Shown here one piece after another: positions 25,461 through 60,605 of a stretch of DNA of 64,000 nt; the stretch's first letter is position 1, and the number at the start of each line of letters is the position of its first letter. The notes under the pieces were generated by a model that saw only the letters and a program-made list of their open reading frames with translations, did no database searches and was not told where the DNA came from. The position numbers were made by a program, and so were the translations under genes. The stretch comes from a virus (taxonomy: Duplodnaviria > Caudoviricetes): positions 1-64,000 of IMG/VR virus record IMGVR_UViG_3300033463_006479. One strand, written 5' to 3'.

Positions 25461-25463
25461 AGT

Positions 25464-26165: not shown

Positions 26166-26191
26166 AGTTTTATATATGTTTATATTTAATA

Positions 26192-26833: not shown

Positions 26834-26836
26834 TGA

Positions 26837-27583: not shown

Positions 27584-27586
27584 AAA

Positions 27587-28225: not shown

Positions 28226-28228
28226 ACC

Positions 28229-28999: not shown

Positions 29000-29009
29000 A
29001 GCATTTTAA

Positions 29010-29627: not shown

Positions 29628-29630
29628 AGT

Positions 29631-42366: not shown

Positions 42367-44169
42367 ATGTATTACAATTCTATTAATGAATCACAAGTTC
42401 TCAACACTTGGGGACAGCACATTAAGGAGAGTTTGGGCATTAACGATGAAAGCAAGTTGGCTTGGATGTCAAAATATGCTTATATGCACGATTTGCACGA
42501 CAAACAAATGTTGAACGAATCCGTGGACGGACACGCTCACCTCAACCCTAATATGACAATCGGCGGAATGGGTCAAATCACATTCCCAGGCGCAACAACC
42601 AACAACACTTACGACCGCTCTTTGGCTGGTTCTGGTGACAATGTTTACAGCGTGCTTCCTTTGGCACTGCAAGTAGCAGCACAGACCATCGCCCTTGACC
42701 TCGTTCCCGTTGTTCCTATGCAGGGACCTCACGGCCTTTTGCAGTACCTCGACTATGTTTACGAAGGTGGCCGTCTGCACAACCAAGGTGGCAGCAAGTA
42801 CACTTCCGAAATCAAGAGCGATGTAATGGGTAACTTCGCATCTCCTTATATGATTAAGGCTATGCTCTTTGACGTTACCGAAGGCGAAGGCAGCGATGCT
42901 CCAAAGCATATGTTTGCTCCTAACGCAAAATACGCCATCAAAGGTCTTGAAGACGATTACGATTTGACTTTCATCTATCCTAACCGTATTGATGGTAAAC
43001 CTTTGTTCCGTGTGATTGAAAAATCCCACTACAATGGCGGACAGAAAATGGTTGGCGGTGAAAACGCTGGTGTTCCTATCTACGTTATCTTCGAAAACCT
43101 CAAAACCACTGAAAACCCAAACGGCAAATACGAACTCGTAGCCCTCGGAACTGGTTCTGACAGCAAAACTCTTACTATCCGCAAATCTGAAGGTTTGCAG
43201 GAAGTTCGTGCTTTTGAAGACCACATCACCTCTTTCAGCGGCGAAGGTTTCTTGAAAGACACCGTTACCTCAAACAATCCTTATACAAGGGAAATGGGCG
43301 AGGCTACTCCTGGCCGTAAGATTGGTTTGAAATCTTACACTCTGGATGTTAAAGCCACCACTTTCCAAGTTGACAGCGCAATCACCCGTGAACAAGTCCA
43401 AGACTTGAAACAGTTTGGTATTGACGCAGTTGCTCAAGCTGAAGCCGCATTGGTTAATGAACTTACCCAATGTATCAACAAGGTCATCCTTGAAAAGATG
43501 TTCAACCTTGGTGCTTTGAACGCTAAACAACTTGAGGAAGTTGAAGGCCGCAACCAAGTTTCCGCTTGGTTCACCAACGGAACTGGTTCTACCCCGACTA
43601 CCAAAATCTGGTTGGGCGACCAAATCAACAAAGAAGGCGAACTGGAAGACAAATATTTCACCGAAGTTCCTTTCACTAACGTGACTGGTGGTGGTGAAGT
43701 TATGGGTACTATCCAAAGACGTGTGATGACCAAAATCATCGCTGCTTCCAACATCATCGCTGTTCGTGGCCGTAGGGGTGCTGGTACTTTCGCTGTCGTA
43801 AGCGGAACTATCGGAACTGCTCTCCAAGACTGCGCTGGTTTCGTTCCTTATCCGTTGAGCAACACAATCTCCGCTAACGGTAACAGCCTTTATCCTATCG
43901 GTGCTCTCGCTGGTATCAGCATTTATGTTGACCCGAATATGGCATTCAACGACACACGTGTTTGCGTTGGTCGTAAGGGTAAAGAGAACGAACCTGGTAT
44001 CGTGTTTATGCCTTATTTGATGGCTGACAAAGTGGAAACCACTTCAGAGTTCACGATGGCTCCTGTCATCAGTCTGAAGAGCCGCTTCGCAGTTGTTGAA
44101 GCAGGTATCTACCCGCAGACCCAGTATTATACCTTCGGTATTAAACTGGAAGGCGTTAGCCTTGTGTAA
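42367..44169 (+). CDS. Major capsid protein, T4 gp23-like
   Basis: VPVVPMQGPHGLLQYLDYVY, TREQVQDLK, IYVDP and VGRKG...GIVFMPY. Strong codon bias. N-terminal INE/LNE sites. Confidence 0.9.
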   Translation: MYYNSINESQVLNTWGQHIKESLGINDESKLAWMSKYAYMHDLHDKQMLNESVDGHAHLNPNMTIGGMGQITFPGATTNNTYDRSLAGSGDNVYSVLPLALQVAAQTIALDLVPVVPMQGPHGLLQYLDYVYEGGRLHNQGGSKYTSEIKSDVMGNFASPYMIKAMLFDVTEGEGSDAPKHMFAPNAKYAIKGLEDDYDLTFIYPNRIDGKPLFRVIEKSHYNGGQKMVGGENAGVPIYVIFENLKTTENPNGKYELVALGTGSDSKTLTIRKSEGLQEVRAFEDHITSFSGEGFLKDTVTSNNPYTREMGEATPGRKIGLKSYTLDVKATTFQVDSAITREQVQDLKQFGIDAVAQAEAALVNELTQCINKVILEKMFNLGALNAKQLEEVEGRNQVSAWFTNGTGSTPTTKIWLGDQINKEGELEDKYFTEVPFTNVTGGGEVMGTIQRRVMTKIIAASNIIAVRGRRGAGTFAVVSGTIGTALQDCAGFVPYPLSNTISANGNSLYPIGALAGISIYVDPNMAFNDTRVCVGRKGKENEPGIVFMPYLMADKVETTSEFTMAPVISLKSRFAVVEAGIYPQTQYYTFGIKLEGVSLV

Positions 44170-48496: not shown

Positions 48497-49684
48497 TTAT
48501 GTGATGATGAAGCGGTAGTGCGGTGTTACCTTGACGGAGAACTCCGCAGCGAAAATGCTTCTGGCGTGTACCGACTTGAAACCATCGGTCAATGTTATAT
48601 CGTAGTGGATAACGTCTGGATATATGGTTTCAACCTTGAGATTGTTCTCGTCCATATTCATTCGTCTTACCTTTTCTGCGATATGTTCCATATCGTGCTT
48701 GTATTTGGTTTCAGCGTTTTTTACCACCTCATCAACATACTTGCGCTTGTTCCACTGGTAATGGTTTGCCAGCACTTGCGTTTCTGTCTGCGTGCGTAAA
48801 GCCAGTTCTGATGGAAGGTCGGCATACAACTCTCTATTCCGCAGGTCTTCGTTATGCCGCCAAGCATACAGCCAATCCTCTTTCTTTCTGACTGGCTTGG
48901 CCTCAATCAAAGTATTAAAAATTACTGATTTCTTTTTAGGAATATACTCCGTTGAAATCGGTGAAAAACTATATCCGACTTTCTTGATTCTGCGGTAAAC
49001 TTCTGACACGCCGTCCCTCGGATGCTCCTTGCTCTCATATATGGCCGCAACCCTATCTCTATCAAGCGTGCCGAAGAAACTCATAAAATCGTATATGTCA
49101 AAATCCTTAAACTGCTTGAACGTATCAAATCGCTTGTCAGCCCATACCCTTACCTGCTCTATGTATCTGTCGTGAAAATCCTTTGTTTCGGAAAACAGAA
49201 TGGATAGCAGGTTGGTATATCTGCGGTCATTTGCATTTTTGTCCTTGTTGATAAGGCCGAACACATATTTGTCAAACGAGTTCTTCGCCCGTGTCCAGTA
49301 ATCGCTTCGTCTGCCATTGAATATAAGCTCTCCAGCTTTTTTGAGTATGAACTCGAACCAAGGAACGCTTTCACCTTCCAACGCTTTTTTTAGCGTAACG
49401 GATGTTGTCGGTGCGTCAAAACACCTCCACCACCAGAGGAAGTCCTCGTCCGTGTATTCTTCTGGTTTTTTGGATTTATGCACCTCGTTACCGATGAGGT
49501 AGATTGCTTTTTTGATTTCAGAAATCTTATTGGATTCTATGCCGTATTTATCGGCAATCAGTCTTTTCTCCGCCTTTGTATAGGCATTATCAACGGCTTT
49601 CAAATCCTGCTTGGCTGCTTCGTAATCAAATCCGTTCACAACAGATTCATTGATAAATTCACCGAAAGTCTTTATGTTCTCCAT
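48497..49684 (-). CDS. Hypothetical protein with a T4-CTS-like N-terminus
   Basis: Starts MENIKTFGEFINESV. Confidence 0.7.
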   Translation of the reverse strand: MENIKTFGEFINESVVNGFDYEAAKQDLKAVDNAYTKAEKRLIADKYGIESNKISEIKKAIYLIGNEVHKSKKPEEYTDEDFLWWWRCFDAPTTSVTLKKALEGESVPWFEFILKKAGELIFNGRRSDYWTRAKNSFDKYVFGLINKDKNANDRRYTNLLSILFSETKDFHDRYIEQVRVWADKRFDTFKQFKDFDIYDFMSFFGTLDRDRVAAIYESKEHPRDGVSEVYRRIKKVGYSFSPISTEYIPKKKSVIFNTLIEAKPVRKKEDWLYAWRHNEDLRNRELYADLPSELALRTQTETQVLANHYQWNKRKYVDEVVKNAETKYKHDMEHIAEKVRRMNMDENNLKVETIYPDVIHYDITLTDGFKSVHARSIFAAEFSVKVTPHYRFIIT

Positions 49685-49797: not shown

Positions 49798-49805
49798 TAT
49801 AAATA
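49798..49805 (+). promoter_or_regulatory. Late promoter of the + LRR array
   Basis: TATAAATA 19 nt upstream of the ATG at 49825. Confidence 0.7.
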
Positions 49806-49824
49806 TATAAACATAAATTGTGCT

Positions 49825-50715
49825 ATGGAAATACTGAAAACAGAACAATACATAAACGAGAAATTGGATATTCTTCCAGTCACAAAGGACAGACTTTCCA
49901 AAATGAAAGAATTGGTTTCTGTTGATGAAAAAACAAGGCGATTTATAGAAGAAAACAACTTGGTTTGGAATCCAGTCACAATGAGTTATGATTGTAAAGA
50001 TGATGTTCAAGTATCAGAGGATATAGTAATTAACGGAAAACTCAAAATAATATTCGGGAAAGTCAGTGGGGATTTTGATTGCCGTGATAATAATCTGACC
50101 ACCCTTGAGTGTGTGCCGAAGGAAGTGGGCGGAAGTTTTTATTGCAGTTATAATAATCTGACTACGCTTGAATGCGCACCGAAAGAAGTTGGTGGGTATT
50201 TTGATTGCAGTAACAATAATCTGACTACACTTGAAGGTGTACCGAATGTGGTTGGTAAGAATTTTGATTGTGGTAGAAATAATCTGACCACCCTTAACGG
50301 AGCACCACAAGAAGTTGGCGGGAGTTTTTATTGCAGTGGAAATGAACTGACTACACTTGAAGGAGCACCGCAGGAAGTGGGTGGTTTTTATTGCAGTTGT
50401 AATAGTCTGACTTCCCTTGAAGGTGCACCGAAAAAGGTTGGTGGGTGTTTTTATTGCAGTTTTAATTATCTGACCACGCTTGAAGGAGCACCAAAGGAAA
50501 TTGGCGAAGATTTTAAATGCAATGATAATGAACTGATTTCCCTTGAAGGCGCACCACAGAGAGTCGGCGGTGGTTTTGATTGTAGTGGCAATAAACTGAT
50601 TTCCCTTGAAGGCGCACCACAGAAAGTCGGTAGGGATTTTAAATGCAGTGATAACCCAAATCTTGTTTTATCAGAAGAAAAACCAAGCTGGGTGAAGGGG
50701 AATTTTATAAGATAA
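49825..50715 (+). CDS. Tagged 21-aa LRR protein
   Basis: Tag plus LRR repeats. Confidence 0.85.
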   Translation: MEILKTEQYINEKLDILPVTKDRLSKMKELVSVDEKTRRFIEENNLVWNPVTMSYDCKDDVQVSEDIVINGKLKIIFGKVSGDFDCRDNNLTTLECVPKEVGGSFYCSYNNLTTLECAPKEVGGYFDCSNNNLTTLEGVPNVVGKNFDCGRNNLTTLNGAPQEVGGSFYCSGNELTTLEGAPQEVGGFYCSCNSLTSLEGAPKKVGGCFYCSFNYLTTLEGAPKEIGEDFKCNDNELISLEGAPQRVGGGFDCSGNKLISLEGAPQKVGRDFKCSDNPNLVLSEEKPSWVKGNFIR

Positions 50716-50724
50716 ATCAAAATT

Positions 50725-51240
50725 ATGGAAATACTTAAATCAGAGCAATACATAAGCGAGAAACTGACCATACAGCCAGTAACAAAGGACAGACTTTCCA
50801 AAATGAAAGAAGAACCTTCTGCTGATGAAAAAGCAAGACAATTCATAGAAGACAACAACTTGGTTTGGAATCCCAAAACAATGTGTTATGACTGTGAAGG
50901 TAATATTAAAGTATCAGATGATATAGTCGCTGGAGGAAAACTTAAAATAAGATTTGGAAAAGTTAGTGGGTATTTTTATTGCAGTGATAATAATCTTACC
51001 ACACTTGAAGGAGCACCGAATAAAGTGGTCGGAAGTTTTTATTGCAGTAACAACAAACTAACCACTCTTGATGGCGCACCGCAATATGTTGAAGGAAGTT
51101 TTACTTGTAATGACAATAATTTGGTATCTCTTGAAGGCGCACCGAATGAAGTGTGTGGAAATTTTTGTTGCTATAATAATCCGAATCTGGTTTTGCCAAA
51201 AGAGAAACCGAGCTGGGTGAAAGGGGAAATAATACGTTAA
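50725..51240 (+). CDS. Tagged 21-aa LRR protein
   Basis: Tag plus LRR repeats. Confidence 0.85.
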   Translation: MEILKSEQYISEKLTIQPVTKDRLSKMKEEPSADEKARQFIEDNNLVWNPKTMCYDCEGNIKVSDDIVAGGKLKIRFGKVSGYFYCSDNNLTTLEGAPNKVVGSFYCSNNKLTTLDGAPQYVEGSFTCNDNNLVSLEGAPNEVCGNFCCYNNPNLVLPKEKPSWVKGEIIR

Positions 51241-51243
51241 ACT

Positions 51244-51885
51244 ATGAGAATATTAAAAACCGAACAATATATAAACGAGAAACTGCTAATCAAACCAGTC
51301 ACAAAGAATATGCTTGCCAAAATGAAAGAAGAGCCTTCTGCTGATGAAAAAGTAAGGCAATTTATAGAAGAAAACAACTTGGTTTGGAATCCAAAAACAA
51401 TGAGCTATGACTGTGTGGGTGATGTTAGAGTATCAGAGGATATAGTAATTGACGGAAAACTCAAAATAAGATTCGGGAAAGTCAATGGATATTTTGATTG
51501 CAGTAACAATAATCTGACCACGCTTGAAGGCTCACCGAATGAAGTGGTCGGAAGTTTTTATTGTGATAATAATAATCTTACCACTCTTGATGGCGCACCG
51601 AATAAAGTGGGCAGAGATTTTGATTGCAGTTATGACAAACTGACCTCGCTTGAAGGCGCACCGAATAAAGTGGGCAGGGATTTTGATTGCAGTTCTAATA
51701 ATCTGACTACGCTTGAAGGCGCACCGAATAAAGTGGGCAGGGATTTTTATTGCGGTTATAATGAACTTACCTCGCTTGAAGGCGCACCACAAGAAGTCGG
51801 TGGGGATTTTAATTGCATTTATAATCCAAACCTTATTTTACCAGAAGGGAAACCGAGCTGGCTGAAAGGGGAAATAATAAATTAA
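51244..51885 (+). CDS. Tagged 21-aa LRR protein
   Basis: Tag plus LRR repeats. Confidence 0.85.
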   Translation: MRILKTEQYINEKLLIKPVTKNMLAKMKEEPSADEKVRQFIEENNLVWNPKTMSYDCVGDVRVSEDIVIDGKLKIRFGKVNGYFDCSNNNLTTLEGSPNEVVGSFYCDNNNLTTLDGAPNKVGRDFDCSYDKLTSLEGAPNKVGRDFDCSSNNLTTLEGAPNKVGRDFYCGYNELTSLEGAPQEVGGDFNCIYNPNLILPEGKPSWLKGEIIN

Positions 51886-51888
51886 GTG

Positions 51889-52653
51889 ATGAAAATACTG
51901 GATTCAAACGAATACATTGGCGAAAAACTGGTAATCAAACCAGTTACAAAGGATATGCTTTCCGATTATAAAAATCTATCTGTTGACGAAACCACAAGTC
52001 AATTCATAGAAGAAAACAATCTTATATGGAATCCAATCACAAAAAGTTATGACTGTGGTGGTAATGTTATCGTATCAGAAGATATGGTCATTGACGGAAA
52101 ACTGAAAATAAAATTCGGAAAGGTCGGCGGGGAGTTTCTTTGCTTTAACAAACAACTGACCACGCTTGAAAACTCACCGAATGAAGTCGGAGGTGAGTTT
52201 GATTGCAGTAACAATGGACTGACTTCACTTGAAGGCGCACCGAAAAAAATTGGTGGACATTTTGATTGCAGTTTTAATAATCTGACCACACTTGAGGGAG
52301 CACCGCAGGAAGTCAGCGGAGGTTTTTATTTATATGATAATCATTTGACCTCGCTTGAAGGAGCACCACAGAAAGTTGGCGGAGATTTTAGTTGCAGTTC
52401 TAATAATCTTACAACGCTTGAAGGCTCACCGCAGAAAGTGAGTGGAGATTTCAATTGCAGTGGTAATGAACTGACCACCCTTGAAGGCGCACCGAAGGAA
52501 GTTGGTGGAAATTTTAATTGCAGTTATAATGAATTGACCACCCTTGATGGCGCACCACAGAAAGTTGGTGGAAATTTTGTTTGCAGTGATAACCCAAACC
52601 TTGTTTTACCAAAAAGAAAACCGAGCTGGTTGAAAGGAAAAATAATCAGTTAA
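51889..52653 (+). CDS. Tagged 21-aa LRR protein
   Basis: Tag plus LRR repeats. Confidence 0.85.
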   Translation: MKILDSNEYIGEKLVIKPVTKDMLSDYKNLSVDETTSQFIEENNLIWNPITKSYDCGGNVIVSEDMVIDGKLKIKFGKVGGEFLCFNKQLTTLENSPNEVGGEFDCSNNGLTSLEGAPKKIGGHFDCSFNNLTTLEGAPQEVSGGFYLYDNHLTSLEGAPQKVGGDFSCSSNNLTTLEGSPQKVSGDFNCSGNELTTLEGAPKEVGGNFNCSYNELTTLDGAPQKVGGNFVCSDNPNLVLPKRKPSWLKGKIIS

Positions 52654-52656
52654 GAT

Positions 52657-53736
52657 ATGAAAATATTGGATTCAAACGAATATATAAACGAGAAACTGGT
52701 AATCAAACCAGTAACAAAGGATAGGCTTTCCGATTATAAAAAGCCATATGCTGATGAGGAGACAATTCGATTCATAAAAGACAACAATCTTATATGGAAT
52801 CCATTATCAAAAAGTTATGACTGCGAAGGTTATGTTAATGTATCAGATGACATAGTAATTAATGGAAAACTCAAAATAAGATTCGGAAAGGTCTGTTTGG
52901 ATTTTAATTGCACTGATAATGAACTGACTACTCTTGAAGGAGCACCAAATGAAGTAGGAGGGGATTTTCTTTGCTTTCACAATGAACTGACCGCCCTTGA
53001 AGGCGCACCGAAGAAAGTCGGCGGACATTTTAATTGCAATAGTAATTATCTGACAACACTTGAAGGAGCACCAAATAATGTTGGTGGGAATTTTTATTGC
53101 AGTAACAATCAACTGACTACACTTGAAGGTGCACCGAATAAAGTTGATGGAAATTTTGATTGCAGTAAAAATAAACTGACCACCCTTGAAGGAGCACCGC
53201 AGGAAGTATGTGGAAGTTTTTATTGCGGTAACAATCAACTGACTACACTTGAAGGCGCACCAAATAAAGTTGATGGCGATTTTGATTGTTATAATAATAA
53301 TCTGACCTATCTTAAAGGCGCACCGCAGGAAGTATGTGGAAGTTTTTATTGCAGCAAAAATAAACTGACCTCGCTTGAAGGTGCACTGAAGAAAGTTGGT
53401 GGAGGCTTTAATTGCAGTAGTAATAATCTGGCCACCCTTGAAGGAGCACCGAAGAAAGTTGGTGGAAATTTTAGTTGCCGTAATAATAATCTTACCACCC
53501 TTGAAGGAGCACCGCAGGAAGTTGGTGGAAATTTTAGTTGCCGTAACAATAATCTGACCACGCTTGAAGGAACACCAAAGAAAGTTTGTGGGGATTTTTA
53601 TTGCAGTCATAATAATCTTACCACACTTGAAGGCGCACCAAATGAAGTCGGTGGTGATTTTGATTGCAGCAATAATCCAAACCTTGTTTTACCAAAAGAA
53701 AAACCGAACTGGCTGAAAGGAAAAATAATCAGTTAA
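52657..53736 (+). CDS. Tagged 21-aa LRR protein
   Basis: Tag plus LRR repeats. Confidence 0.85.
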   Translation: MKILDSNEYINEKLVIKPVTKDRLSDYKKPYADEETIRFIKDNNLIWNPLSKSYDCEGYVNVSDDIVINGKLKIRFGKVCLDFNCTDNELTTLEGAPNEVGGDFLCFHNELTALEGAPKKVGGHFNCNSNYLTTLEGAPNNVGGNFYCSNNQLTTLEGAPNKVDGNFDCSKNKLTTLEGAPQEVCGSFYCGNNQLTTLEGAPNKVDGDFDCYNNNLTYLKGAPQEVCGSFYCSKNKLTSLEGALKKVGGGFNCSSNNLATLEGAPKKVGGNFSCRNNNLTTLEGAPQEVGGNFSCRNNNLTTLEGTPKKVCGDFYCSHNNLTTLEGAPNEVGGDFDCSNNPNLVLPKEKPNWLKGKIIS

Positions 53737-53739
53737 GAT

Positions 53740-54828
53740 ATGAAAATACTGGATTCAAACGAATACATAAACGAGAAACTGGACATTAAGCCAGTTACAA
53801 ATGACATACTTTCCAAATTTAGGGAAGAACCTTATATTGATAAAAAGACAAGAAAATTCATAGAAGTCAACAATCTTATATGGAATCCAGTCACAATGAG
53901 TTATGACTGTGATGGCGATGTTGATGTGTGGGAAGGCATAGTTACAGATGGAAAACTCAAAATAAGATTTGGGGATGTCTGTGGTGATTTTGATTGCAGT
54001 TATAATGAACTGACCACCCTTGAAGGCGCACCGAAAAAAGTAGGTGGTGATTTTGATTGTGATATTAATAATCTGACCACACTTGAAGGAGCACCAAATG
54101 TGGTGGGTGGACATTTTATTTGCAATGGCAATAAACTGACTTCACTTAAAGGAGCACCGAATGACGTTGGCGGAGATTTTAATTGCAGTGACAATAGTAT
54201 AACCACGCTTGAAGGTGCACCGAATAAGGTGGGCTGGGATTTTGATTGCAGTATTAATAAACTGACCACCCTTGAAGGAGCACCGAATGAAGTTGGTGGC
54301 GATTTTAATTGCAGTAGTAATAGTCTGACTACCCTTAAAGGCGCACCGAAGAAAGTTGATGGTGATTTTGATTGCAGTGGTAATAATCTGACCGCCCTTG
54401 AAGGTGCATCGAATGAGGTCGGTGGGTATTTTTATTGCTGTTATAATAAACTAACAACCCTTGAAGGTGCACCGAAGAAAGTGAGTGGAAATTTTTATTG
54501 TTATAACAATAATCTGACCACACTTGAAGGAGCACCAAATGAAGTAGGCGGGGATTTTAATTGCTCTTTTAATAATCTGACTGCCATTGAAGGAGCACCG
54601 AAGAAAGTCGGTGGGGATTTTAATTGCAGTAACAATGAACTGACCACCCTTGAAGGAGCACCGACTGTGGTTGGTAAAGGTTTTAATTGCAGTCATAATG
54701 AACTGACCACTCTTGAAGGAGCACCACAGAAAGTCGTTGGCGATTTTTATTGCAGACATAATCCAAACCTTGTTTTACCAGAAGAAAAACCGATTTGGAT
54801 TGAAGGAAAATATATAACTGCTTTATGA
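53740..54828 (+). CDS. Tagged 21-aa LRR protein
   Basis: Tag plus LRR repeats. Confidence 0.85.
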   Translation: MKILDSNEYINEKLDIKPVTNDILSKFREEPYIDKKTRKFIEVNNLIWNPVTMSYDCDGDVDVWEGIVTDGKLKIRFGDVCGDFDCSYNELTTLEGAPKKVGGDFDCDINNLTTLEGAPNVVGGHFICNGNKLTSLKGAPNDVGGDFNCSDNSITTLEGAPNKVGWDFDCSINKLTTLEGAPNEVGGDFNCSSNSLTTLKGAPKKVDGDFDCSGNNLTALEGASNEVGGYFYCCYNKLTTLEGAPKKVSGNFYCYNNNLTTLEGAPNEVGGDFNCSFNNLTAIEGAPKKVGGDFNCSNNELTTLEGAPTVVGKGFNCSHNELTTLEGAPQKVVGDFYCRHNPNLVLPEEKPIWIEGKYITAL

Positions 54829-55592
54829 AAATACTTGATTCAAACGAATATATAAACGAGAAACTGGACATCCAGCCAGTCACAAAGGATAGGTTTGCCA
54901 AATTTAAGGAAGAACCTTATATTGATGAAAAGACAAGAAAATTCATAGAAGACAACAATCTTATATGGAATCCAGTTACAATGAGCTATGACTGTGGAGG
55001 TGGTGTTAAAGCATCAGAGGATATAGTTGCTGACGGAAAACTTAAAATAAGATTCGGGAAGGTTGATGGGGATTTTAATTGCAGTGATAATCAACTGACA
55101 ACCCTTGATGGAGCACCGAAGGAAGTGGGTAGAAATTTTTATTGCAGAAGAAATAAACTGACAACCCTTGAAGGAGCACCGAAGGAAGTGAGCGGAAGTT
55201 TTTATTGCAGTCGTAATAATCTGACCACCCTTAAAGACGCACCACAAAAAGTGGGTGGAGATTTTGATTGCATTGGTAATAAACTAACCACCCTTGAAGG
55301 AGCACCGCAGGAAGTTGGTGGGTATTTTAGTTGCAGTAATAATAATCTTACAACGCTTGAAGGAGCACCTCAAGAAATAGGTAAGGATTTTGATTGCAGT
55401 TTTAATAATCTTACCACCCTTAAAGGAACACCGCAGAAAGTCGGTGGGTATTTTAATTGCAGTGACACCAATCTGACCACCCTTGAGTACGCACCGAATG
55501 AAGTTGACGGTTATTTTTATTGTTATAATAACTCAAGTCTTGTTTTGCCAGAGGAGAAACCGAGCTGGCTGAAAGGGAGAATAATAAGTTAA
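54825..55592 (+). CDS. Tagged 21-aa LRR protein
   Basis: Tag plus LRR repeats. Confidence 0.85.
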   Translation: MKILDSNEYINEKLDIQPVTKDRFAKFKEEPYIDEKTRKFIEDNNLIWNPVTMSYDCGGGVKASEDIVADGKLKIRFGKVDGDFNCSDNQLTTLDGAPKEVGRNFYCRRNKLTTLEGAPKEVSGSFYCSRNNLTTLKDAPQKVGGDFDCIGNKLTTLEGAPQEVGGYFSCSNNNLTTLEGAPQEIGKDFDCSFNNLTTLKGTPQKVGGYFNCSDTNLTTLEYAPNEVDGYFYCYNNSSLVLPEEKPSWLKGRIIS

Positions 55593-55595
55593 ATT

Positions 55596-56300
55596 ATGAA
55601 AACACTGAAAACTGAACAATACATAAGCGAGAAACTGACCATACAGCCAGTCACAAAGGACAGACTTTCCAAAATGAAAGAAGAGCCGTCTGTTGATGAA
55701 AAAGCAAGGCTATACATAGAAGAAAACAACTTGGTTTGGAATTCAAAAACAATAAGCTATGATTGTTATGGAGATGTTGATGTGTCGGAAGACATAGTTA
55801 CAGATGGAAAACTCAAAATAAGATTTGGAAAGATTGGTGGGTATTTTGATTGCAATAACAATAGACTGACTACGCTTGAAGGAGTACCGAAAGAAGTTGG
55901 TGGGTATTTTGATTGCAGTTATAACAATCTGACCACACTTGAAGGAGCACCGAATGTTGTTGGTGAAGATTTTTATTGTGATAACAATAGACTGACCACT
56001 CTTGAAGGCGCACCGAATGAAGTGAGTGGTGATTTTTTTTGCGGTGGCAATAAACTGGCCACACTTGAAGGAGCACCGAAGGAAGTTGGCGGTTGTTTCA
56101 GTTGTAGTAATAATAATCTTACAACGCTTGAAGGTGCACCGAAAAAGGTCGGCGGGTATTTTAATTGCAGTGACAATAATCTGACTACACTTGAAGGAGC
56201 ACCACAGAAAGTTGGTGGGGATTTTAATTGCATTAATAACCCAAACCTTGTTTTACCAGAAGAAAAACCAATCTGGGTGAAAGGTGAAATATATAAATAA
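55596..56300 (+). CDS. Tagged 21-aa LRR protein
   Basis: Tag plus LRR repeats. Confidence 0.85.
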   Translation: MKTLKTEQYISEKLTIQPVTKDRLSKMKEEPSVDEKARLYIEENNLVWNSKTISYDCYGDVDVSEDIVTDGKLKIRFGKIGGYFDCNNNRLTTLEGVPKEVGGYFDCSYNNLTTLEGAPNVVGEDFYCDNNRLTTLEGAPNEVSGDFFCGGNKLATLEGAPKEVGGCFSCSNNNLTTLEGAPKKVGGYFNCSDNNLTTLEGAPQKVGGDFNCINNPNLVLPEEKPIWVKGEIYK

Positions 56301-56303
56301 TTT

Positions 56304-56882
56304 ATGAGAATACTGAAGTCAGACACATATATAAACGAGAAACTGGACATTAAGCCAGTCACAAAGGACAGACTTTCCAAATTTATGGAAAAACTGTATG
56401 TTGATGAAAACACAAGGAAATTTATAGAAAAGAATAATCTTAAATGGAATCCATTATTAAAAGGTTATGACTGTGGAGGTGATGTTAAAGTATCAGAGGA
56501 TATAGTCACTGACGGAAAACTGAAAATAAGATTTGGGAAAGTCGGTGGTAATTTTCATTGCGGTAGTAATAATCTGACCACGCTTGAAGGCGCACCGAAG
56601 GAAGTCGGTGGGTGTTTCAGTTGTAGTAATAATAATCTTACAACGCTTGAAGGAACACCGAAAAATGTCTGTGGGTATTTTAATTGCAGTGATAATAAAC
56701 TGACTTCACTTGAAGGAGCACCGCAGGAAGTCGGTGGGAATTTTTATTGCAGTGGTAATGAACTGACTACGCTTGAAGGCGCACCGAAGGAAGTCGGTGG
56801 GGATTTTATTTGCAGATATAACCAAAACCTTGTTTTACCAAAAGAAAAACCGAGCTGGCTGAAAGGGAATTTTATAAATTAA
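56304..56882 (+). CDS. Tagged 21-aa LRR protein
   Basis: Tag plus LRR repeats. Confidence 0.85.
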   Translation: MRILKSDTYINEKLDIKPVTKDRLSKFMEKLYVDENTRKFIEKNNLKWNPLLKGYDCGGDVKVSEDIVTDGKLKIRFGKVGGNFHCGSNNLTTLEGAPKEVGGCFSCSNNNLTTLEGTPKNVCGYFNCSDNKLTSLEGAPQEVGGNFYCSGNELTTLEGAPKEVGGDFICRYNQNLVLPKEKPSWLKGNFIN

Positions 56883-56891
56883 ATCAAAATT

Positions 56892-57659
56892 ATGGAAATA
56901 CTGAAAACCGAACAATATATAAACGAGAAACTGACCATACAGCCAGTAACAAAGGATAGACTTTCCAAATTTAGGGAAGAACCTTATATTGATGAAAAGA
57001 CAAGGCAATTCATAGAATACAACAACCTTAAATGGAATCCAGTTACAAAAAGTTATGATTGTGAAGGTGATGTTAAAGTATCAGAGGATATTGTTGCTGA
57101 CGGAAAACTGAAAATAAGATTCGGAAAAGTTAGCGGGATTTTTGATTGCAGTAACAATAAACTGACATCGCTTGAAGGAGCACCGAATGAAGTTGGTGGT
57201 AATTTTTATTGCGGTTATAATGAACTGACCACCCTTGATGGCGCACCGCAATATGTTGGTGTTGGTTTTCATTGTTATGGTAATAAACTGACTTCCCTTG
57301 AAGGCGCACCTCAAGAAATAGGTAAAGATTTTGATTGCGGTTATAATAATCTGACCACCCTTGAAGGAGCACCGAAGAAAGTTGGTGGTAATTTTGATTG
57401 CAGCAGTAATGTATTGACCACCCTTGAAGGCGCACCAAAATATGTTGGTGATAATTTTATTTGCAGTTATAATAAACTGACCACTCTTGAATGCGCACCG
57501 CAAGAAGTTGGTGTGGGTTTTTATTGCACTTCCAATAATCTGACCTCTCTTGAAGGTGCACCGAATAAAGTCGGTGGGTATTTTTATTGCAGTGATAATT
57601 CAAACCTTGTTTTACCAAAAGAAAAACCGAGCTGGGTGAAAGGAGAAATAATAAGTTAA
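56892..57659 (+). CDS. Tagged 21-aa LRR protein
   Basis: Tag plus LRR repeats. Confidence 0.85.
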   Translation: MEILKTEQYINEKLTIQPVTKDRLSKFREEPYIDEKTRQFIEYNNLKWNPVTKSYDCEGDVKVSEDIVADGKLKIRFGKVSGIFDCSNNKLTSLEGAPNEVGGNFYCGYNELTTLDGAPQYVGVGFHCYGNKLTSLEGAPQEIGKDFDCGYNNLTTLEGAPKKVGGNFDCSSNVLTTLEGAPKYVGDNFICSYNKLTTLECAPQEVGVGFYCTSNNLTSLEGAPNKVGGYFYCSDNSNLVLPKEKPSWVKGEIIS

Positions 57660-57662
57660 AAT

Positions 57663-58556
57663 ATGCAAATACTGAAAACCGAACAATACATAAACGAGAA
57701 ACTGACCATACAGCCAGTTACAAAGGACAGACTTTCCAAAATGAAAGAAGAGCCTTCTGTTGATAAAAAAGCAAGGCGATTCATAGAAGAAAACAACTTG
57801 GTTTGGAATCCAGTAACAATGAGTTATGACTGTGATGGTGATGTCAAAACATCAAAGGATATAGTTGCTGGTGGAAAATTGAACATAAAATTCGGAAATG
57901 TCGGCGGGGAGTTTAATTGCAATGAAAGTCATCTGACCACACTTGAAGGCGCACCGCAGGAAGTATGTGGAAGTTTTAGTTGCAATCATAATAATCTGAC
58001 CACCCTTGAGGGCGCACCGAAGAAAGTCGGTGGGCATTTTTATTGCATTGGTAATAATCTGACCACCCTTGAATGCGCACCAAATGAAGTTGGTGAAAAT
58101 TTTTATTGCAGTTATAATGAACTTACCTCGCTTGAAGGAGCACCGAAGAAAGTCGGCGGATATTTTGATTGTAGTAACAATAAATTGAAAATACTTGATG
58201 GTGCACCGCAGGAAGTGGGTGGAAATTTTGTTTGCAGTTTTAATAATCTGACCACACTTGATGGCGCACCGAAAAAAGTAGGCTGGTATTTTGATTGCAG
58301 TCATAATAATCTAACTTCACTTGAAGGTGCACCGCAGGAAGTTTATGGAGGTTTTTATTGCAGTAACAATAATTTGACCTCGCTTGAAGGTGCACCGAAT
58401 AAAGTGGATGGGGGTTTTAGTTGCAATAGTAATAATCTGACTTCACTTGAAGGCGCACCGAAAAAGGTTGGCGGTGATTTTTATTGCAGTTATAATCCGA
58501 ATTTGTATTTGCCTAAAGAAAAACCGAGCTGGTTGAAAGGAAATTTTATAAATTAA
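57663..58556 (+). CDS. Tagged 21-aa LRR protein
   Basis: Tag plus LRR repeats. Confidence 0.85.
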   Translation: MQILKTEQYINEKLTIQPVTKDRLSKMKEEPSVDKKARRFIEENNLVWNPVTMSYDCDGDVKTSKDIVAGGKLNIKFGNVGGEFNCNESHLTTLEGAPQEVCGSFSCNHNNLTTLEGAPKKVGGHFYCIGNNLTTLECAPNEVGENFYCSYNELTSLEGAPKKVGGYFDCSNNKLKILDGAPQEVGGNFVCSFNNLTTLDGAPKKVGWYFDCSHNNLTSLEGAPQEVYGGFYCSNNNLTSLEGAPNKVDGGFSCNSNNLTSLEGAPKKVGGDFYCSYNPNLYLPKEKPSWLKGNFIN

Positions 58557-58565
58557 ATCAAAATT

Positions 58566-59585
58566 ATGCAAATACTGAAAACCGAACAATATATAGACGA
58601 GAAACTGGTAGTTAAACCATTAACAAAGGATAGGCTTGTCAAATTTAAAGAAGAGCCTTCTGTTGATGAAAACGCAAGGCAATTCATAGAAAAAAACAAC
58701 TTGGTTTGGAATCCCAAAACAATGAGTTATGACTGTGATGGCGATGTTAGCGTATCAGAAGATATAGTCATTGACGGAAAATTGAAAATAAGATTCGGAA
58801 AAGTTAGTGGATGTTTTGATTGCAGTTATAACAAACTGATATCGCTTGAAGGAGCACCGAAGAAAGTGGGCGGGGATTTTAGTTGCAGTCATAATAAACT
58901 GACCACCCTTGAAGGAGCACCGCAGAATGTGGGCGGGAAATTTAATTGCATTCATAATAAACTGACTACCCTTGAAGGAGCTCCGAATGTGGTTGGTAAC
59001 AGTTTTTATTGCAGCAAAAATGAACTGACCACCCTTGAAGGAGCACCGCAGAAAGTGGGCAGGGATTTTAATTGTAGTGATAATAATCTAACCACACTTG
59101 AGGGCGCACCACAAGAAGTTGGAGGTAAATTTGATTGCGATAACAATATACTGACATCACTTGAAGGCGCACCGAAGAAAGTCGGCTGGGATTTTTATTG
59201 CAGTGTTAACAAGCTAACCTCACTTAAAGGTGCGCCGAATGAAGTGGGCGGGGATTTTTATTGCTATTATAATAAACTGACCTCGCTTGAAGGTGCGCCA
59301 CAAAAGGTTGGTAAAACTTTTGATTGCAGTGACAATAAACTAACAACACTTGAAGGAGCACCGAGTGTTGTTGGCAGAGGTTTTTGTTGCAACAAAAATA
59401 ATCTGACTACCCTTGAAGGAGCACCGCAGAAAGTTGGTGAGGATTTTATTTGCTTTCACAATCAACTTACCACCATTGAAATAGCACCGCAGGAAGTCGG
59501 AGGCGATTTTTTTTGCAGCAATAACCCAACCCTTGTTTTACCAAAAAGAAAACCGAGCTGGCTGAAAGGAAATATAATACGTTAA
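58566..59585 (+). CDS. Tagged 21-aa LRR protein
   Basis: Tag plus LRR repeats. Confidence 0.85.
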   Translation: MQILKTEQYIDEKLVVKPLTKDRLVKFKEEPSVDENARQFIEKNNLVWNPKTMSYDCDGDVSVSEDIVIDGKLKIRFGKVSGCFDCSYNKLISLEGAPKKVGGDFSCSHNKLTTLEGAPQNVGGKFNCIHNKLTTLEGAPNVVGNSFYCSKNELTTLEGAPQKVGRDFNCSDNNLTTLEGAPQEVGGKFDCDNNILTSLEGAPKKVGWDFYCSVNKLTSLKGAPNEVGGDFYCYYNKLTSLEGAPQKVGKTFDCSDNKLTTLEGAPSVVGRGFCCNKNNLTTLEGAPQKVGEDFICFHNQLTTIEIAPQEVGGDFFCSNNPTLVLPKRKPSWLKGNIIR

Positions 59586-59588
59586 ACT

Positions 59589-60101
59589 ATGAAAATACTG
59601 GATTCAAACGAATACATAAACGAGAAACTGAACATACAGCCAGTTACAAAGGATAGGCTTTCCGATTATAAAAAGCCATCTGTTGATAAGGAAACAATAC
59701 GATTTATAGAAGAGAAAAATCTTATATGGAATCCATTATCAAAATGTTATGATTGCGGAGGTAATGTTAGAGTATTAGATGATATGGTCATTGACGGAAA
59801 ACTCAAAATAAAATTCGGGAAAGTCGGTGGTGGTTTTGATTGCAGTAACAATAAACTGACCACACTTGAAGGCGCACCGCAGGAAGTGCGTGGAGGTTTT
59901 TATTGTAATAACAATAATCTGACCTCGCTTGAATGTGCACCACAAAAAGTTGGTGGAAATTTTAATTGCAGTTCTAATAATCTAACCTCGCTTGAATGCG
60001 CACCACAGAAAGTTGGTGGTGATTTTTATTGCAGACATAATCCAAACCTTGTTTTACCAGAAGGAAAACCGAGCTGGCTGAAAGGAGAAATATATGACTA
60101 A
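59589..60101 (+). CDS. Tagged 21-aa LRR protein
   Basis: Tag plus LRR repeats. Confidence 0.85.
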   Translation: MKILDSNEYINEKLNIQPVTKDRLSDYKKPSVDKETIRFIEEKNLIWNPLSKCYDCGGNVRVLDDMVIDGKLKIKFGKVGGGFDCSNNKLTTLEGAPQEVRGGFYCNNNNLTSLECAPQKVGGNFNCSSNNLTSLECAPQKVGGDFYCRHNPNLVLPEGKPSWLKGEIYD

Positions 60102-60104
60102 TTT

Positions 60105-60605
60105 ATGAGAATACTGGATTCAAAAGAATACATAAGCGAGAAACTGGATATTAAACCTATAACAAAGAAAAGATTGAAAAGCGGTATGTTCGATTGGAAA
60201 AATAAATTGAAAACTGGAGATGCCGTTATCATTAAACTTGTGTCGGATTCAAAAAAAGAATATACAGTTGAGTTTTTTTATGTATCTGAAGAAGATTACA
60301 ACCAATACAAATCAATCTTTAACTTTGATATGGCCAGCATAGAAACCGATAAATTGAAAAACGGTATGTTCATAAGGTGGCGTTGGGGTGATAAAAAATA
60401 TGAATTTAGTATGGTAAGCCAGTATGGTGACATTAATGCAATGCGAACAACAAGTGCTGGCAATTATGAGTATGTATGCCGCATATACCGCAACGAGAAA
60501 TTTGAATATCCGCTAACTGGAAAATATTTCAAAGACAACCAAAATCTTGTTTTTGCGTTGTCTTACGGCTGGTCACTTGTTTATGATTCTGTTTTAAATC
60601 ACTAA
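60105..60605 (+). CDS. Tagged TGD-domain protein
   Basis: YISEKLDIKPITKKRL, LKTGDAV, YVSEEDY and IYR. Confidence 0.75.
   Translation: MRILDSKEYISEKLDIKPITKKRLKSGMFDWKNKLKTGDAVIIKLVSDSKKEYTVEFFYVSEEDYNQYKSIFNFDMASIETDKLKNGMFIRWRWGDKKYEFSMVSQYGDINAMRTTSAGNYEYVCRIYRNEKFEYPLTGKYFKDNQNLVFALSYGWSLVYDSVLNH

What the first reader, a model, noticed from the sequence alone, without database searches (positions are those of the whole stretch)
49825..60101. Antibody-like (VLR-like) LRR library: 13 tandem genes here, 24 in the window
Seen: fixed N-cap (WNP.T.SYDC.G.V...GKLKIRFG) and C-cap (NPNLVLP..KPSW.KG), with a variable number of 63-nt/21-aa repeats LTTLEGAPxxVGGxFxCxxNx. The framework is nearly invariant, while the x positions around F-x-C vary among Y/D/N/S/H/G/F/R/I. 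Known: in LRR solenoids these positions of the LxLxxN strand form the concave binding face, as in lamprey variable lymphocyte receptors and internalins. Inference: a phage-encoded repertoire of binders under diversifying selection, plausibly against host defence proteins or receptors.
Basis: partly seen in the sequence, partly recalled or inferred. Interest (0 to 1): 0.8.

Follow-up and report, generated by a model that had tools for sequence, protein, structure and literature searches.

The report
Strain-variable LRR binder array in megaphage
A huge rumen phage carries 24 intact genes (13 in one tandem operon) for small leucine-rich-repeat binding proteins whose ligand-facing residues differ from gene to gene and whose gene set is almost completely different in a nearly identical sister phage, which suggests a fast-turning arsenal of binders, probably loaded into the capsid and injected into the host.

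Summary
There are 13 tandem + strand genes at 49825-60101 and 24 in the window. Each has a 25-aa leader, a fixed N-cap, 3.5-12.5 repeats of 21 aa and a fixed C-cap. Variation sits at repeat positions 14, 16, 18, 19 and 21.

The repeat is the internalin-J type "cysteine-ladder" LRR. The AlphaFold model (pLDDT 93) resembles the LRR domains of injected effectors SspH1, IpaH and YopM.

The "VLR/antibody-like" label fails. These are complete germline genes, the repeats are 21 aa, there are no Cys-knot caps, and no reverse transcriptase was found.

Diversifying selection is partly supported:
- In recently amplified relatives, concave-site dN/dS is 3-6.
- In the window's own genes it is about 1, because these sites are saturated.
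- Between orthologues, concave residues are mostly conserved.

Repertoire change happens by gene and repeat-unit gain, loss and recombination. A sister phage with a 98.5% identical capsid protein has 4 genes at this locus instead of 13, and only one is orthologous.

Best mechanism (inferred): the leader works like a T4 internal-protein capsid-targeting sequence. Supporting points are a Gp23-type capsid protein, an S77 prohead protease in a relative, and the promoter-like motif shared with the capsid gene.

The scan met this LRR family before on other DNA (e1-4580212, e1-5625466).

The parts
49798..49805 (+). TATAAATA promoter-like motif, 27 nt upstream of the first array gene
   Evidence: The motif occurs 18 times in the window against 4.8 expected. 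It also sits about 100 nt upstream of the capsid gene (42260). It is conserved at both places in relative L023.
49825..50715 (+). LRR gene 1, 296 aa, 9.5 repeats (one unit is 20 aa)
50725..51240 (+). LRR gene 2, 171 aa, 3.5 repeats. It is the only array gene with a clear orthologue (85% aa) in L023, and all 16 concave residues are conserved there.
51244..51885 (+). LRR gene 3, 213 aa, 5.5 repeats
51889..52653 (+). LRR gene 4, 254 aa, 7.5 repeats. Its C-terminal units are found in the chimeric fourth gene of L023.
52657..53736 (+). LRR gene 5, 359 aa, 12.5 repeats
53740..54828 (+). LRR gene 6, 362 aa, 12.5 repeats. Used as query for the PDB, NCBIfam and PHROG searches.
54825..55592 (+). LRR gene 7, 255 aa, 7.5 repeats. 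This is the gene folded with AF2. Its orthologue P0001 lies on bovine contig L013.
55596..56300 (+). LRR gene 8, 234 aa, 6.5 repeats. The L013 orthologue carries one extra unit.
56304..56882 (+). LRR gene 9, 192 aa, 4.5 repeats. A second TATAAATA lies at 56292-56299, just upstream.
56892..57659 (+). LRR gene 10, 255 aa, 7.5 repeats
57663..58556 (+). LRR gene 11, 297 aa, 9.5 repeats
58566..59585 (+). LRR gene 12, 339 aa, 11.5 repeats
59589..60101 (+). LRR gene 13, 170 aa, 3.5 repeats. Its C-cap is the 3' partner of the L023 chimeric junction.
14299..15129 (-). LRR paralogue, 276 aa, with an internal two-unit duplication
15135..17318 (-). 727-aa fusion: three copies of a non-LRR module, then an LRR module. 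Each module is preceded by an internal xxE-KLxIxPxTKxRL copy of the leader's second half.
19741..20442 (-). LRR paralogue, 233 aa. Its orthologue in L025 (95-98% nt identity over the region) lacks one unit, differs by 5 nonsynonymous nucleotide changes in 3 concave codons and has no synonymous change in the LRR part.
24567..30518 (-). Second LRR cluster with seven LRR genes (24567-25460, 25464-26165, 26192-26833, 26837-27583, 27587-28225, 28229-28999, 29631-30518). One non-LRR leader gene (29010-29627) is interleaved.
36054..36809 (-). Divergent LRR paralogue. With 26837 it forms the only subfamily that has a cross-genome orthologue in G001.
60105..60605 (+). Non-LRR gene carrying the same leader. 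It marks the downstream boundary of the array and is 96% aa identical in L023.
48497..49684 (-). 395-aa gene of unknown function. It marks the upstream boundary of the array and is 95% aa identical in L023.
42367..44169 (+). Major capsid protein of the T4 Gp23 family, preceded by TATAAATA at 42260

Best explanation
What is shown:
- The locus is a tandem set of 13 genes preceded by one TATAAATA motif, in a huge rumen phage with a T4-type head. The phage's capsid protein is distantly related to that of Lak megaphages.
- Each gene encodes a small (19-39 kDa), mostly acidic protein with no signal peptide.
- Each protein has a 25-aa leader, a 50-aa N-cap, 3.5-12.5 InlJ-type 21-aa cysteine-ladder LRRs and a 19-aa C-cap.
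- The invariant F, C, N and L residues build the solenoid core. The residues that alternate with them on the beta-strand (positions 14, 16, 18, 19) differ from rung to rung and from gene to gene, so each gene presents its own concave surface.
- New rungs diversify quickly after duplication and are then held by purifying selection.
- The gene set is reshuffled by unequal recombination between the conserved caps and units, by unit gain and loss, and by gene birth and death. Near-identical phages therefore carry largely different sets.

What is inferred:
- The shared leader (M-K/R-I-L-x-S/T-x-x-Y-I-N/S-E-K-L-x-I-x-P-V/I-T-K-x-R-L) acts like the capsid-targeting sequence of T4 internal proteins.
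- It docks the protein on the scaffold core of the prohead and is cut after the Glu of Y-I-x-E by the gp21-type (S77) prohead protease.
- The mature LRR proteins are packed with the DNA and injected into the host.
- There, each binds a particular host protein through its concave face. Defence proteins are the most plausible targets, by analogy with T4 IPI*.

The confidence given (0.5) is for the whole statement including the inferred delivery route. The shown part alone I hold at about 0.9.
For: Fold and variable face:
- InlJ 3bz5 matches at E 5e-26 and aligns F15/C17/N20 on the LRR core. NCBIfam internalin_J also matches.
- The AF2 model has pLDDT 93, with a strand at F15-x16 in every unit. 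The leader is the only low-confidence part (61-66).
- Foldseek's best hits are the SspH1, IpaH and YopM LRR domains.
- Entropy per repeat position shows the variable sites.

Selection:
- Framework dN/dS is 0.12-0.15.
- Concave dN/dS is 3-6.4 where synonymous divergence is low (Vibrio phage SRILMA and L015; the 4.8 for L019 rests on a single unit pair).
- Concave dN/dS is 1.0 and saturated in the window.
- Concave residues are conserved in the orthologues of 50725 (0 of 16 changed) and of 54825 (7 nonsynonymous changes over 32 concave codons, most of them in the last unit).

Turnover:
- L023 and L024, from two independent samples, have a 98.5% identical MCP and flanking genes 95-96% identical. 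They carry 4 LRR genes instead of 13.
- Only one of the four is orthologous (85%). The last is a chimera whose 3' end joins gene 4-like units to the C-cap of gene 13.
- Orthologues in L025 and L013 show unit indels.
- In the N-cap tree, copies cluster by genome (2 label changes against 13.3 in shuffles).

Capsid-targeting model:
- The MCP belongs to the Gp23 family (107 bits). The complete relative G001 encodes an S77 prohead protease. Its C-terminal extension holds 12 tandem DY(L/I)AE(K/Q/H)(L/V/M) repeats that resemble the leader's EYINEKL.
- T4 internal proteins use 10-19-aa N-terminal capsid-targeting propeptides that gp21 removes (PMC9026906). That gp21 cuts after Glu in an (L/I)-x-E context is from my own knowledge; the passage read names only a glutamyl-alanyl bond in gp22 and a gp21 site written 'LIE'.
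- The leader is constrained as a peptide: pS 0.53, dN/dS 0.25.
- The second half of the leader recurs at domain boundaries of fusion proteins.
- TATAAATA precedes both the MCP gene and the array, here and in L023.
- The proteins have no hydrophobic N-terminus.
Against: - There is no proteomic, expression or cleavage data. The leader-protease link rests on motif resemblance only.
- The protease orthologue is not on the 192-kb fragment that holds the window. It is known only from relative G001.
- Conservation continues for 12 residues beyond the proposed cleavage site, unlike the short T4 CTS.
- LRR solenoids of up to 39 kDa would have to pass through the portal and tail channel.
- The nearest bacterial homologues of all the tagged payloads (InlJ, DUF285/BspA-like, Fib_succ_major) are extracellular adhesin-type domains. 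That fits display on the virion surface at least as naturally.
- Concave-face mapping rests on alignment plus DSSP, not on computed solvent exposure.
- The ortholog selection test rests on only five gene pairs.
Confidence: 0.5

Rival explanations
1. The proteins are displayed on the virion surface. The leader and N-cap anchor the LRR, DUF285 and FISUMP modules to the capsid or tail. They would act as accessory adhesins or receptor-binding modules, as T4 Hoc does or as the Goslar DUF7941 proteins with variable C-terminal binding domains do. They would widen or tune adsorption to host surfaces or rumen substrates.
For: - The closest characterised homologues are extracellular adhesins (InlJ). The co-tagged payloads are DUF285 and Fib_succ_major, which are surface-protein domains.
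- In Goslar, one shared N-terminal module carries carbohydrate-binding, GH or LRR domains and forms tail-associated fibres (PMC13742148).
- The motif shared with the capsid gene fits any virion component.
- Strain-level turnover is typical of receptor-binding genes.
Against: - The leader resembles the repeated Y-(L/I)-x-E motif of the protease-scaffold protein, and it recurs at internal domain boundaries. That fits a cleavage site better than an anchor.
- The anchor would be only 25-75 aa, with no recognisable decoration or fibre fold.
- No trimerisation or fibre shaft domain is present.
- About 50 different decorations would be unprecedented.
Confidence: 0.2
2. The proteins are effectors that are not packaged. 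They are made late in the infected cell and act there, for example by sequestering host or competitor-phage proteins or by superinfection exclusion. The conserved leader would serve another purpose, such as localisation, chaperone binding or translation efficiency.
For: - The proteins are soluble, acidic and lack a signal peptide.
- Purifying selection acts on the framework and on each orthologue's concave face.
- Nothing directly shows packaging.
Against: - Anti-defence functions are needed early, whereas the array shares its promoter-like motif with the capsid gene.
- The leader matches the T4 CTS layout and the scaffold repeats.
Confidence: 0.15
3. The diversity comes from templated or targeted hypermutation (DGR-like, or VLR-like cassette assembly) that actively rewrites the concave codons.
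For: - Concave codons are almost all NNT. NAT:NAC is 123:0 at position 14 and 116:2 at position 16, against 48:52 in other genes and 61:39 in the caps of the same genes. Ser is AGY only.
- The L025 orthologue differs at concave codons only, with no synonymous change in the LRR part. One variant string also exists in another paralogue, which would allow micro-conversion.
Against: - There is no RVT_1 reverse transcriptase in G000 or in the complete 413-kb relative G001, and the control genomes did give hits.
- All genes are complete ORFs.
- Orthologues keep most concave residues at 10-20% synonymous divergence.
- The locked third base differs by lineage and by position (T, or C in other phages). 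That points to shared descent of units, not to an AAT template.
Confidence: 0.03
4. The array is non-functional repeat expansion, that is selfish or neutral paralog amplification.
For: Copy number is very variable, and the locus is dispensable in a relative (4 genes against 13).
Against: - All 24 ORFs are intact.
- Framework dN/dS is 0.12-0.15.
- The concave alphabet is restricted to D/N/Y/S/G/H.
- Concave residues are conserved in orthologues.
Confidence: 0.04

Closest known systems
Listeria monocytogenes internalin J (InlJ, PDB 3bz5), the cysteine-ladder LRR
   Same: - 21-residue repeats with Cys at the L6 core position and Asn at N9.
- It is the best sequence match in the PDB (E 5e-26) and in NCBIfam.
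   Different: - The phage proteins have no signal peptide, no internalin helical cap, no Ig-like inter-repeat domain and no LPXTG anchor.
- The score (94 bits) is far below the family cut-off of 1700.
- The proteins are phage-encoded, 170-362 aa long and carry a phage-specific leader and caps.
LRR domains of type III secreted effectors IpaH, SspH1, SlrP and YopM
   Same: - Best structural matches (Foldseek).
- Short bacterial-type LRRs.
- Multigene families of injected proteins in which each paralogue's concave face picks a different host target.
   Different: - No NEL E3-ligase domain and no T3SS signal.
- Delivery, if any, would be by phage ejection.
- Sequence similarity is marginal (E about 1e-3).
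T4 internal proteins (IPI, IPII, IPIII, Alt) with capsid-targeting sequences
   Same: - A short N-terminal leader containing a hydrophobic-x-Glu motif.
- A Gp23-type capsid and an S77 (gp21-type) protease in the clade.
- The gene set varies among close relatives; IP genes are likewise poorly conserved among T4-like phages (PMC9026906).
- IPI* is an injected anti-restriction protein (PMC9026906).
   Different: - Packaging and cleavage are not shown here.
- About 45-50 tagged genes, against 3-4 in T4.
- The payloads are repeat-protein binders, not small basic proteins.
- Conservation extends well past the putative cut site.
Lamprey variable lymphocyte receptors
   Same: An LRR scaffold in which variable residues on the concave beta-sheet give binding diversity, with a variable number of LRR modules.
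   Different: - Here the diversity is a germline multigene family, not somatic assembly of cassettes.
- Units are 21 aa, not 24 aa.
- The caps lack the disulfide-knotted LRRNT and LRRCT.
- There is no stalk or GPI anchor.
Goslar (Chimalliviridae) DUF7941 family
   Same: One shared N-terminal module is placed on about ten phage proteins with different C-terminal binding domains, including LRR/beta-helix (PMC13742148).
   Different: - DUF7941 is a folded domain that forms tail-associated fibres.
- Here the shared part is a 25-aa flexible peptide, and no homology was found.

Membership tests
InlJ-type cysteine-ladder LRR (repeat class) | 21-residue repeat with a Leu-to-Cys replacement at core position 6 and Asn at position 9 | tested here: met
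   C17 is present in 165 of 166 units and N20 in 164 of 166. The period is 21 aa. The alignment to 3bz5 places C on C and N on N.
InlJ-type cysteine-ladder LRR (repeat class) | Right-handed LRR solenoid with a parallel beta-sheet on the concave side | tested here: met
   The AF2 model has pLDDT 93, with a regular strand at F15-x16 in each unit. Foldseek hits are all LRR domains.
Internalin family (Listeria class 1 internalins) | Sec signal peptide, helical N-cap, Ig-like inter-repeat region and LPXTG or GW anchor | tested here: not met
   The N-terminus is hydrophilic, with hydrophobic runs of at most 4 residues. Only 19 aa follow the last repeat. The NCBIfam score is 94 against a cut-off of 1700.
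IpaH/SspH (NEL) effectors | C-terminal novel E3 ligase domain | tested here: not met
   The proteins end 19 aa after the LRR. Pfam and NCBIfam find no NEL domain.
Variable lymphocyte receptors | Incomplete germline gene completed by copying flanking LRR cassettes | tested here: not met
   All 24 copies are complete ORFs with a start codon, caps and a stop codon.
Variable lymphocyte receptors | Cys-rich LRRNT and LRRCT caps and 24-aa LRRV modules | tested here: not met
   The N-cap has one Cys and the C-cap none. Units are 21 aa. The Pfam LRRNT hits fall inside the repeats; all but one (26.4 bits vs 25.8, gene 5, no single stretch passing) are below cut-off.
Diversity-generating retroelement targets | Nearby reverse transcriptase and template repeat | tested here: not met
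   There is no RVT_1 hit in G000 or in the complete relative G001, while the control genomes gave hits.
T4-type internal (capsid-targeted, injected) proteins | N-terminal propeptide with a hydrophobic-x-Glu site for a gp21-type protease | tested here: inconclusive
   The Y-I-(N/S)-E motif lies at residues 9-12 of all copies. An S77 protease exists in G001 and carries 12 similar Y-(L/I)-A-E repeats. Cleavage itself was not tested, and the protease is not on the window's own record.
T4-type internal (capsid-targeted, injected) proteins | Physical presence in the mature head and ejection into the host | not testable with these tools
   This needs virion proteomics or infection assays.
T4-type internal (capsid-targeted, injected) proteins | Gene set that varies among close relatives | tested here: met
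   L023 has 4 genes against 13 here. Only one is an orthologue, although the MCP is 98.5% identical.

The most novel reading that the evidence does not exclude
This megaphage clade loads its capsid with a strain-specific library of dozens of leader-tagged repeat-protein binders (24 LRR proteins plus DUF285, FISUMP and others). It injects them with its DNA as an effector arsenal in which each binder neutralises a different host defence or takeover target. This would be a phage counterpart of the IpaH/YopM effector families, an order of magnitude larger than the T4 internal-protein system, and renewed by cassette recombination.
Probability: 0.35. Interest if true: 0.85.

Novelty: new variant of a known kind. 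Interest (0 to 1): 0.66.

Why it matters
Phage counter-defence is usually described as single small inhibitors. Here a phage devotes more than 10 kb at one locus, and about 20 kb in 64 kb, to a family of modular binders. Their contact surfaces have diversified, and their gene set is replaced between phages that are otherwise 93-98% identical. That pattern is the signature of an arms-race locus.

If the leader is a capsid-targeting tag, the system would be the largest known set of injected phage proteins. It would also be a natural example of a portable packaging tag on interchangeable binder scaffolds, which could be useful for phage engineering and for binder design.

The LRR body is widespread in uncultivated phages and is unnamed in Pfam. 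The nearest ESM Atlas clusters are 98-100% viral. Assigning a role here would therefore annotate thousands of proteins.

Tried and rejected
- DGR-type mutagenesis was suggested by the NNT-only concave codons. It was rejected because G000 and the complete relative G001 have no reverse transcriptase, orthologues keep their concave residues, and the locked third base differs by lineage.
- Binning unit pairs by low pS gave an apparent dN/dS of up to 7. I discarded this because selecting on 21-codon noise biases pS downward. It was replaced by unselected within-gene comparisons and orthologue comparisons.
- A search for long, recent duplications between genes found none. The best three-unit blocks are 87% identical, against a median of 73.5%. 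Paralog dS is therefore near saturation and cannot decide the selection question.
- Each unit contains a terminator-like hairpin followed by a T-run (36 found against 8.2 in shuffles). Base-pair covariation is negligible (4.48 against 4.42 paired positions). I treat it as a by-product of the A-P...V-G-G codons.
- PADLOC gave no hit. Pfam gave only sub-threshold or marginal LRR hits, all inside the repeats.
- The flanking 395-aa gene found no relatives in IMG/VR.
- The G001 protease was not found on the G000 fragment. The weak S77 hit on G000 (18 bits) is a different small ORF.
- The literature searches found no description of this phage LRR family or of its leader.

Full report
**Observation**

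The 13 ORFs at 49825-60101 are real, intact and tandem on the + strand. They are separated by 3-10 nt or overlap by 4 nt.

A motif scan of all ORFs finds 11 further copies on the - strand between 14299 and 36809. One of them is the C-terminal module of a 727-aa fusion protein. That gives 24 in the window. A search of the whole 192-kb record with one copy finds no LRR copy outside the window.

Every copy has the same layout:
- a 25-aa leader;
- an N-cap ending in GKLKIRFG;
- a half unit, followed by 3-12 full units of 21 aa (a few are 20 aa);
- the cap NPNLVLPxxKPSWxKG.

Across 166 full units the entropy is 0.05-0.25 bit at L1, L4, P8, F15, C17 and N20.

**What the proteins are**

- Pfam barely detects them: the LRRNT and LRR_4 hits fall inside the repeats and, with one marginal exception (LRRNT 26.4 vs 25.8 bits on gene 5), are below cut-off.
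- The best solved-structure match by sequence is internalin J (3bz5), the "cysteine ladder" LRR, at E 5e-26. The alignment puts F15 on L, C17 on C and N20 on N. SspH1 and IpaH7.8 LRRs follow at E about 1e-3.
- NCBIfam agrees: internalin_J scores 94 bits, far below the family cut-off.
- An AlphaFold2 model of gene 7 (54825-55592), built on 45 family sequences, has pLDDT 93 and pTM 0.84. DSSP shows a short strand at F15-x16 in each unit. Only residues 1-30, the leader, are of low confidence (61-66).
- Foldseek ranks the LRR domains of SspH1, IpaH7.8, IpaH3 and YopM first.

F15 and C17 are invariant core residues on that strand. By ordinary beta-strand alternation and by homology with InlJ, positions 14, 16 and 18 (and 19 in the following turn) point out of the concave sheet. 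I could not compute solvent exposure from coordinates, so this mapping is well supported but indirect.

The proteins are hydrophilic, mostly acidic (pI 4.5-6) and have no hydrophobic N-terminal segment, so they are not Sec or lipoprotein substrates.

**The genome**

- The window belongs to a 192-kb IMG/VR fragment.
- The 600-aa protein at 42367-44169 is a T4 Gp23-family major capsid protein (107 bits). It is 33% identical to Lak megaphage capsid proteins and 44% identical to that of a 462-kb uncultured phage.
- It is 88% identical to the capsid protein of a complete 413-kb IMG/VR phage, G001.
- Close relatives come from cattle samples; contig L013 is labelled a bovine metagenome.

**Distribution of the family**

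- The LRR body is very common. More than 3,800 proteins match at E no greater than 1e-5 among the 8,000 candidates scored, and all are unnamed.
- The nearest ESM Atlas clusters are 98-100% viral.
- The same repeats occur, with other N-termini, in phages whose capsids are only distantly related (28-44%) and in Vibrio jumbo phage SRILMA.
- By contrast, the leader plus N-cap of this clade finds only 36 cluster representatives among 1.84 billion.

**Turnover among relatives**

Contigs L023 and L024 come from two different samples and show the same arrangement. Their capsid protein is 98.5% identical to the window's. The two genes flanking the array are 95-96% identical, and flanking DNA is about 93% identical. 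Between those flanks they carry 4 LRR genes, not 13:
- One is the orthologue of gene 2 (85%).
- Two have no counterpart better than 55% in the window.
- The fourth is a chimera. Its last units match gene 4 and its C-cap matches gene 13. This is what unequal crossing-over between conserved caps, deleting or adding about 7 kb, would produce.

Other relatives show the same kind of change:
- In L025 (95-98% nt identity) the orthologue of 19741 lacks one 63-nt unit. It differs by five nonsynonymous nucleotide changes in three concave codons and has no synonymous difference in the LRR part. One variant 21-mer also exists in gene 6, so micro-conversion is possible.
- In L013 the orthologue of gene 7 follows three DUF285 genes instead of an LRR gene. 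Its N-terminal third has been swapped for that of another paralogue. The orthologue of gene 8 has one extra unit.
- G001 has LRR genes in several small clusters, none more than 65% identical to the window gene used as query.
- In a tree of the N-cap region, copies group by genome (2 label changes against 13.3 in shuffles, 0 of 500 shuffles as low). This indicates lineage-specific expansion or concerted evolution.

**Selection**

- The framework is under clear purifying selection, with dN/dS of 0.12-0.15.
- Among units within the window's genes, concave sites have pN 0.44 against pS 0.445. The ratio is 1.0, and pN sits on a plateau of 0.35-0.6 that does not fall with pS across 0.26-0.73. The sites are saturated. 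The four genes with the lowest pS give ratios of 1.6-2.0.
- In family members of other phages whose units amplified recently, the ratio is far above 1. It is 6.4 in the Vibrio SRILMA gene (pS 0.06), and 3.0 and 6.4 in two L015 genes. An L019 gene gives 4.8, but from one unit pair only.
- Between orthologues the concave residues are mostly kept. None of 16 changed in gene 2. In gene 7 there are 7 nonsynonymous changes over 32 concave codons, most of them in the last unit.
- Pooled over orthologues, concave dN/dS is 0.5 against overall dS. The changes are clustered in terminal units next to the recombination-prone C-cap.

My reading is that new rungs diversify quickly after duplication, through positive selection on the binding face. 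Each gene's surface is then conserved, and repertoire change between strains comes from recombination and gene turnover. An early analysis that binned unit pairs by low pS was discarded as biased.

**A codon oddity**

At positions 14 and 16 the NAY codons are NAT 123:0 and 116:2. The ratio is 48:52 in other genes of the window and 61:39 in the caps of the same LRR genes. Ser at concave positions is AGY, while framework Ser is TCN.

This looks like a DGR footprint. However, there is no reverse transcriptase in G000 or in the complete G001. In other phage lineages the locked third base is a different one at each position. I therefore read it as units sharing recent descent within each lineage, while the first two codon bases diverge. 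That agrees with the selection result. Synonymous divergence is uneven along the unit, and this unevenness remains unexplained.

**Mechanism**

The 25-aa leader is shared by at least 44 ORFs in the window. About 20 of them have unrelated bodies, such as DUF285 and Fib_succ_major. The first-stage reader filed this as separate findings. I used it only as far as it bears on the LRR genes.

- The leader is constrained as a peptide: pS 0.53 and dN/dS 0.25.
- It is flexible in the model.
- Its second half (x-E-K-L-x-I-x-P-x-T-K-x-R-L) recurs at the domain boundaries of the 727-aa fusion protein.
- The phage has a T4-type capsid protein. The complete relative G001 encodes a T4 gp21-type S77 prohead protease. 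Its C-terminal extension carries 12 tandem DY(L/I)AE(K/Q/H)(L/V/M) repeats, which closely resemble the leader's EYINEKL.
- In T4, 10-19-residue N-terminal capsid-targeting sequences bring internal proteins into the prohead core and are removed by gp21. The proteins are ejected into the host, where IPI* blocks a restriction enzyme, and IP genes are not well conserved among T4-like phages (PMC9026906). That gp21 cuts after Glu in an (L/I)-x-E context is from my own knowledge; the passage read names only a glutamyl-alanyl bond in gp22 and a site written 'LIE'.
- The motif TATAAATA is over-represented (18 occurrences against 4.8 expected). It precedes both the capsid gene and the array, here and in L023.

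I therefore favour a T4-internal-protein-like model: loading by the leader, cleavage after the Glu of Y-I-x-E, and injection. Every step of this model is inferred. The protease orthologue is not on the window's fragment.

The main rival is display on the virion surface as adhesins. All the payload domain types are adhesin-like in bacteria. Goslar shows a precedent for one N-terminal module carrying varied binding domains, including LRR.

**Comparison and novelty**

- The fold and repeat class are known (InlJ-type).
- The proteins are not internalins, not NEL effectors and not VLRs. Defining features of each were tested and not met.
- Functionally the closest concepts are the IpaH/YopM effector families and the T4 internal proteins.
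- New here are the scale (24 LRR genes among about 45-50 leader-tagged genes), the demonstrated strain-level turnover of the array, and the link between a phage LRR family and a CTS-like leader.
- I found no paper describing this.
- The scan has met the same LRR family on other DNA. In e1-4580212 a follow-up also named InlJ as the closest known. e1-5625466 is a further case.

Noticed in passing
window 8871-60605 (for example 18340-19107, 32747-33616, 12312-12881, 60105-60605): At least 44 ORFs share the 25-aa leader M(K/R)IL(D/K)(S/T)xxYI(N/S)EKLxI(K/Q)P(V/I)TKxRL. About 20 of them carry non-LRR bodies such as DUF285, Fib_succ_major or unknown domains. The second half of the leader recurs inside multi-domain ORFs at domain boundaries.
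   Followed up: partly
L020:1-1938 (- strand), which is G001:290934-292871: In the 413-kb relative, the S77 prohead protease is fused to a scaffold-like tail. The tail contains 12 tandem 14-aa repeats, each with DY(L/I)AE(K/Q/H)(L/V/M). This motif resembles the leader's EYINEKL and a gp21-type cleavage site.
   Followed up: partly
window 49825-60101 and all LRR units: Third-base lock at concave codons: NAT 123:0 and 116:2 at positions 14 and 16, Ser as AGY only, F15 as TTT 157:7. Cap regions of the same genes use NAT:NAC at 61:39. Other phage lineages lock a different base at each position. Synonymous divergence is very uneven along the 63-nt unit.
   Followed up: partly
window 49600-61300, + strand, once per repeat unit: Each unit can form a 5-6-bp hairpin (CACCG..N6-8..CGGTG) followed by GGNATTTTT. 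The scan found 36 terminator-like sites against 8.2 in shuffles. Covariation between the arms is negligible, so the hairpin is probably a by-product of the A-P...V-G-G codons.
   Followed up: yes
window 46629-48266 (+), compared with L023: The 545-aa TnpB/Cas12f-like gene (Cas12f1-like_TNB domain) between the DUF285 genes and the 395-aa gene is absent at the same place in the sister contig L023. It appears to be a recent insertion in this strain. Two further transposase/TnpB-like genes lie at 11005-12240 and 62029-63255.
   Followed up: partly
window 40199-42178 (+): A 659-aa homing-endonuclease/HNH-like protein (PHROG 3339/559; DUF7487 in the L023 annotation) lies directly upstream of the capsid gene. 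A divergent pair of TATAAATA motifs sits at 40147-40158.
   Followed up: no
window 42367-42530 (MCP N-terminus) and L001-L004, L023: The capsid protein N-terminus contains conserved (I/L/M)-x-E motifs: INE at residues 6-8 and (L/M/I)-(N/A)-E at 49-51, just before SVDGHAHLNPNM. These are candidate maturation cleavage sites of the same type as the leader motif.
   Followed up: no
L014:5950-6585 (Vibrio phage VB_VaC_SRILMA, PP083314.1): A cultured Vibrio jumbo phage encodes a 211-aa protein with 7 nearly identical copies of the same 21-aa Cys-LRR unit. The copies differ almost only at concave positions (dN/dS about 6.4). It lacks this clade's leader and caps. It may be a tractable model for the family.
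   Followed up: partly
window 52843-53610 (-) and similar: Long antisense ORFs (up to 255 aa) run through the LRR genes in the codon-aligned reverse frame. They are themselves 21-aa periodic. This is most likely a repeat artefact and not a gene.
   Followed up: no
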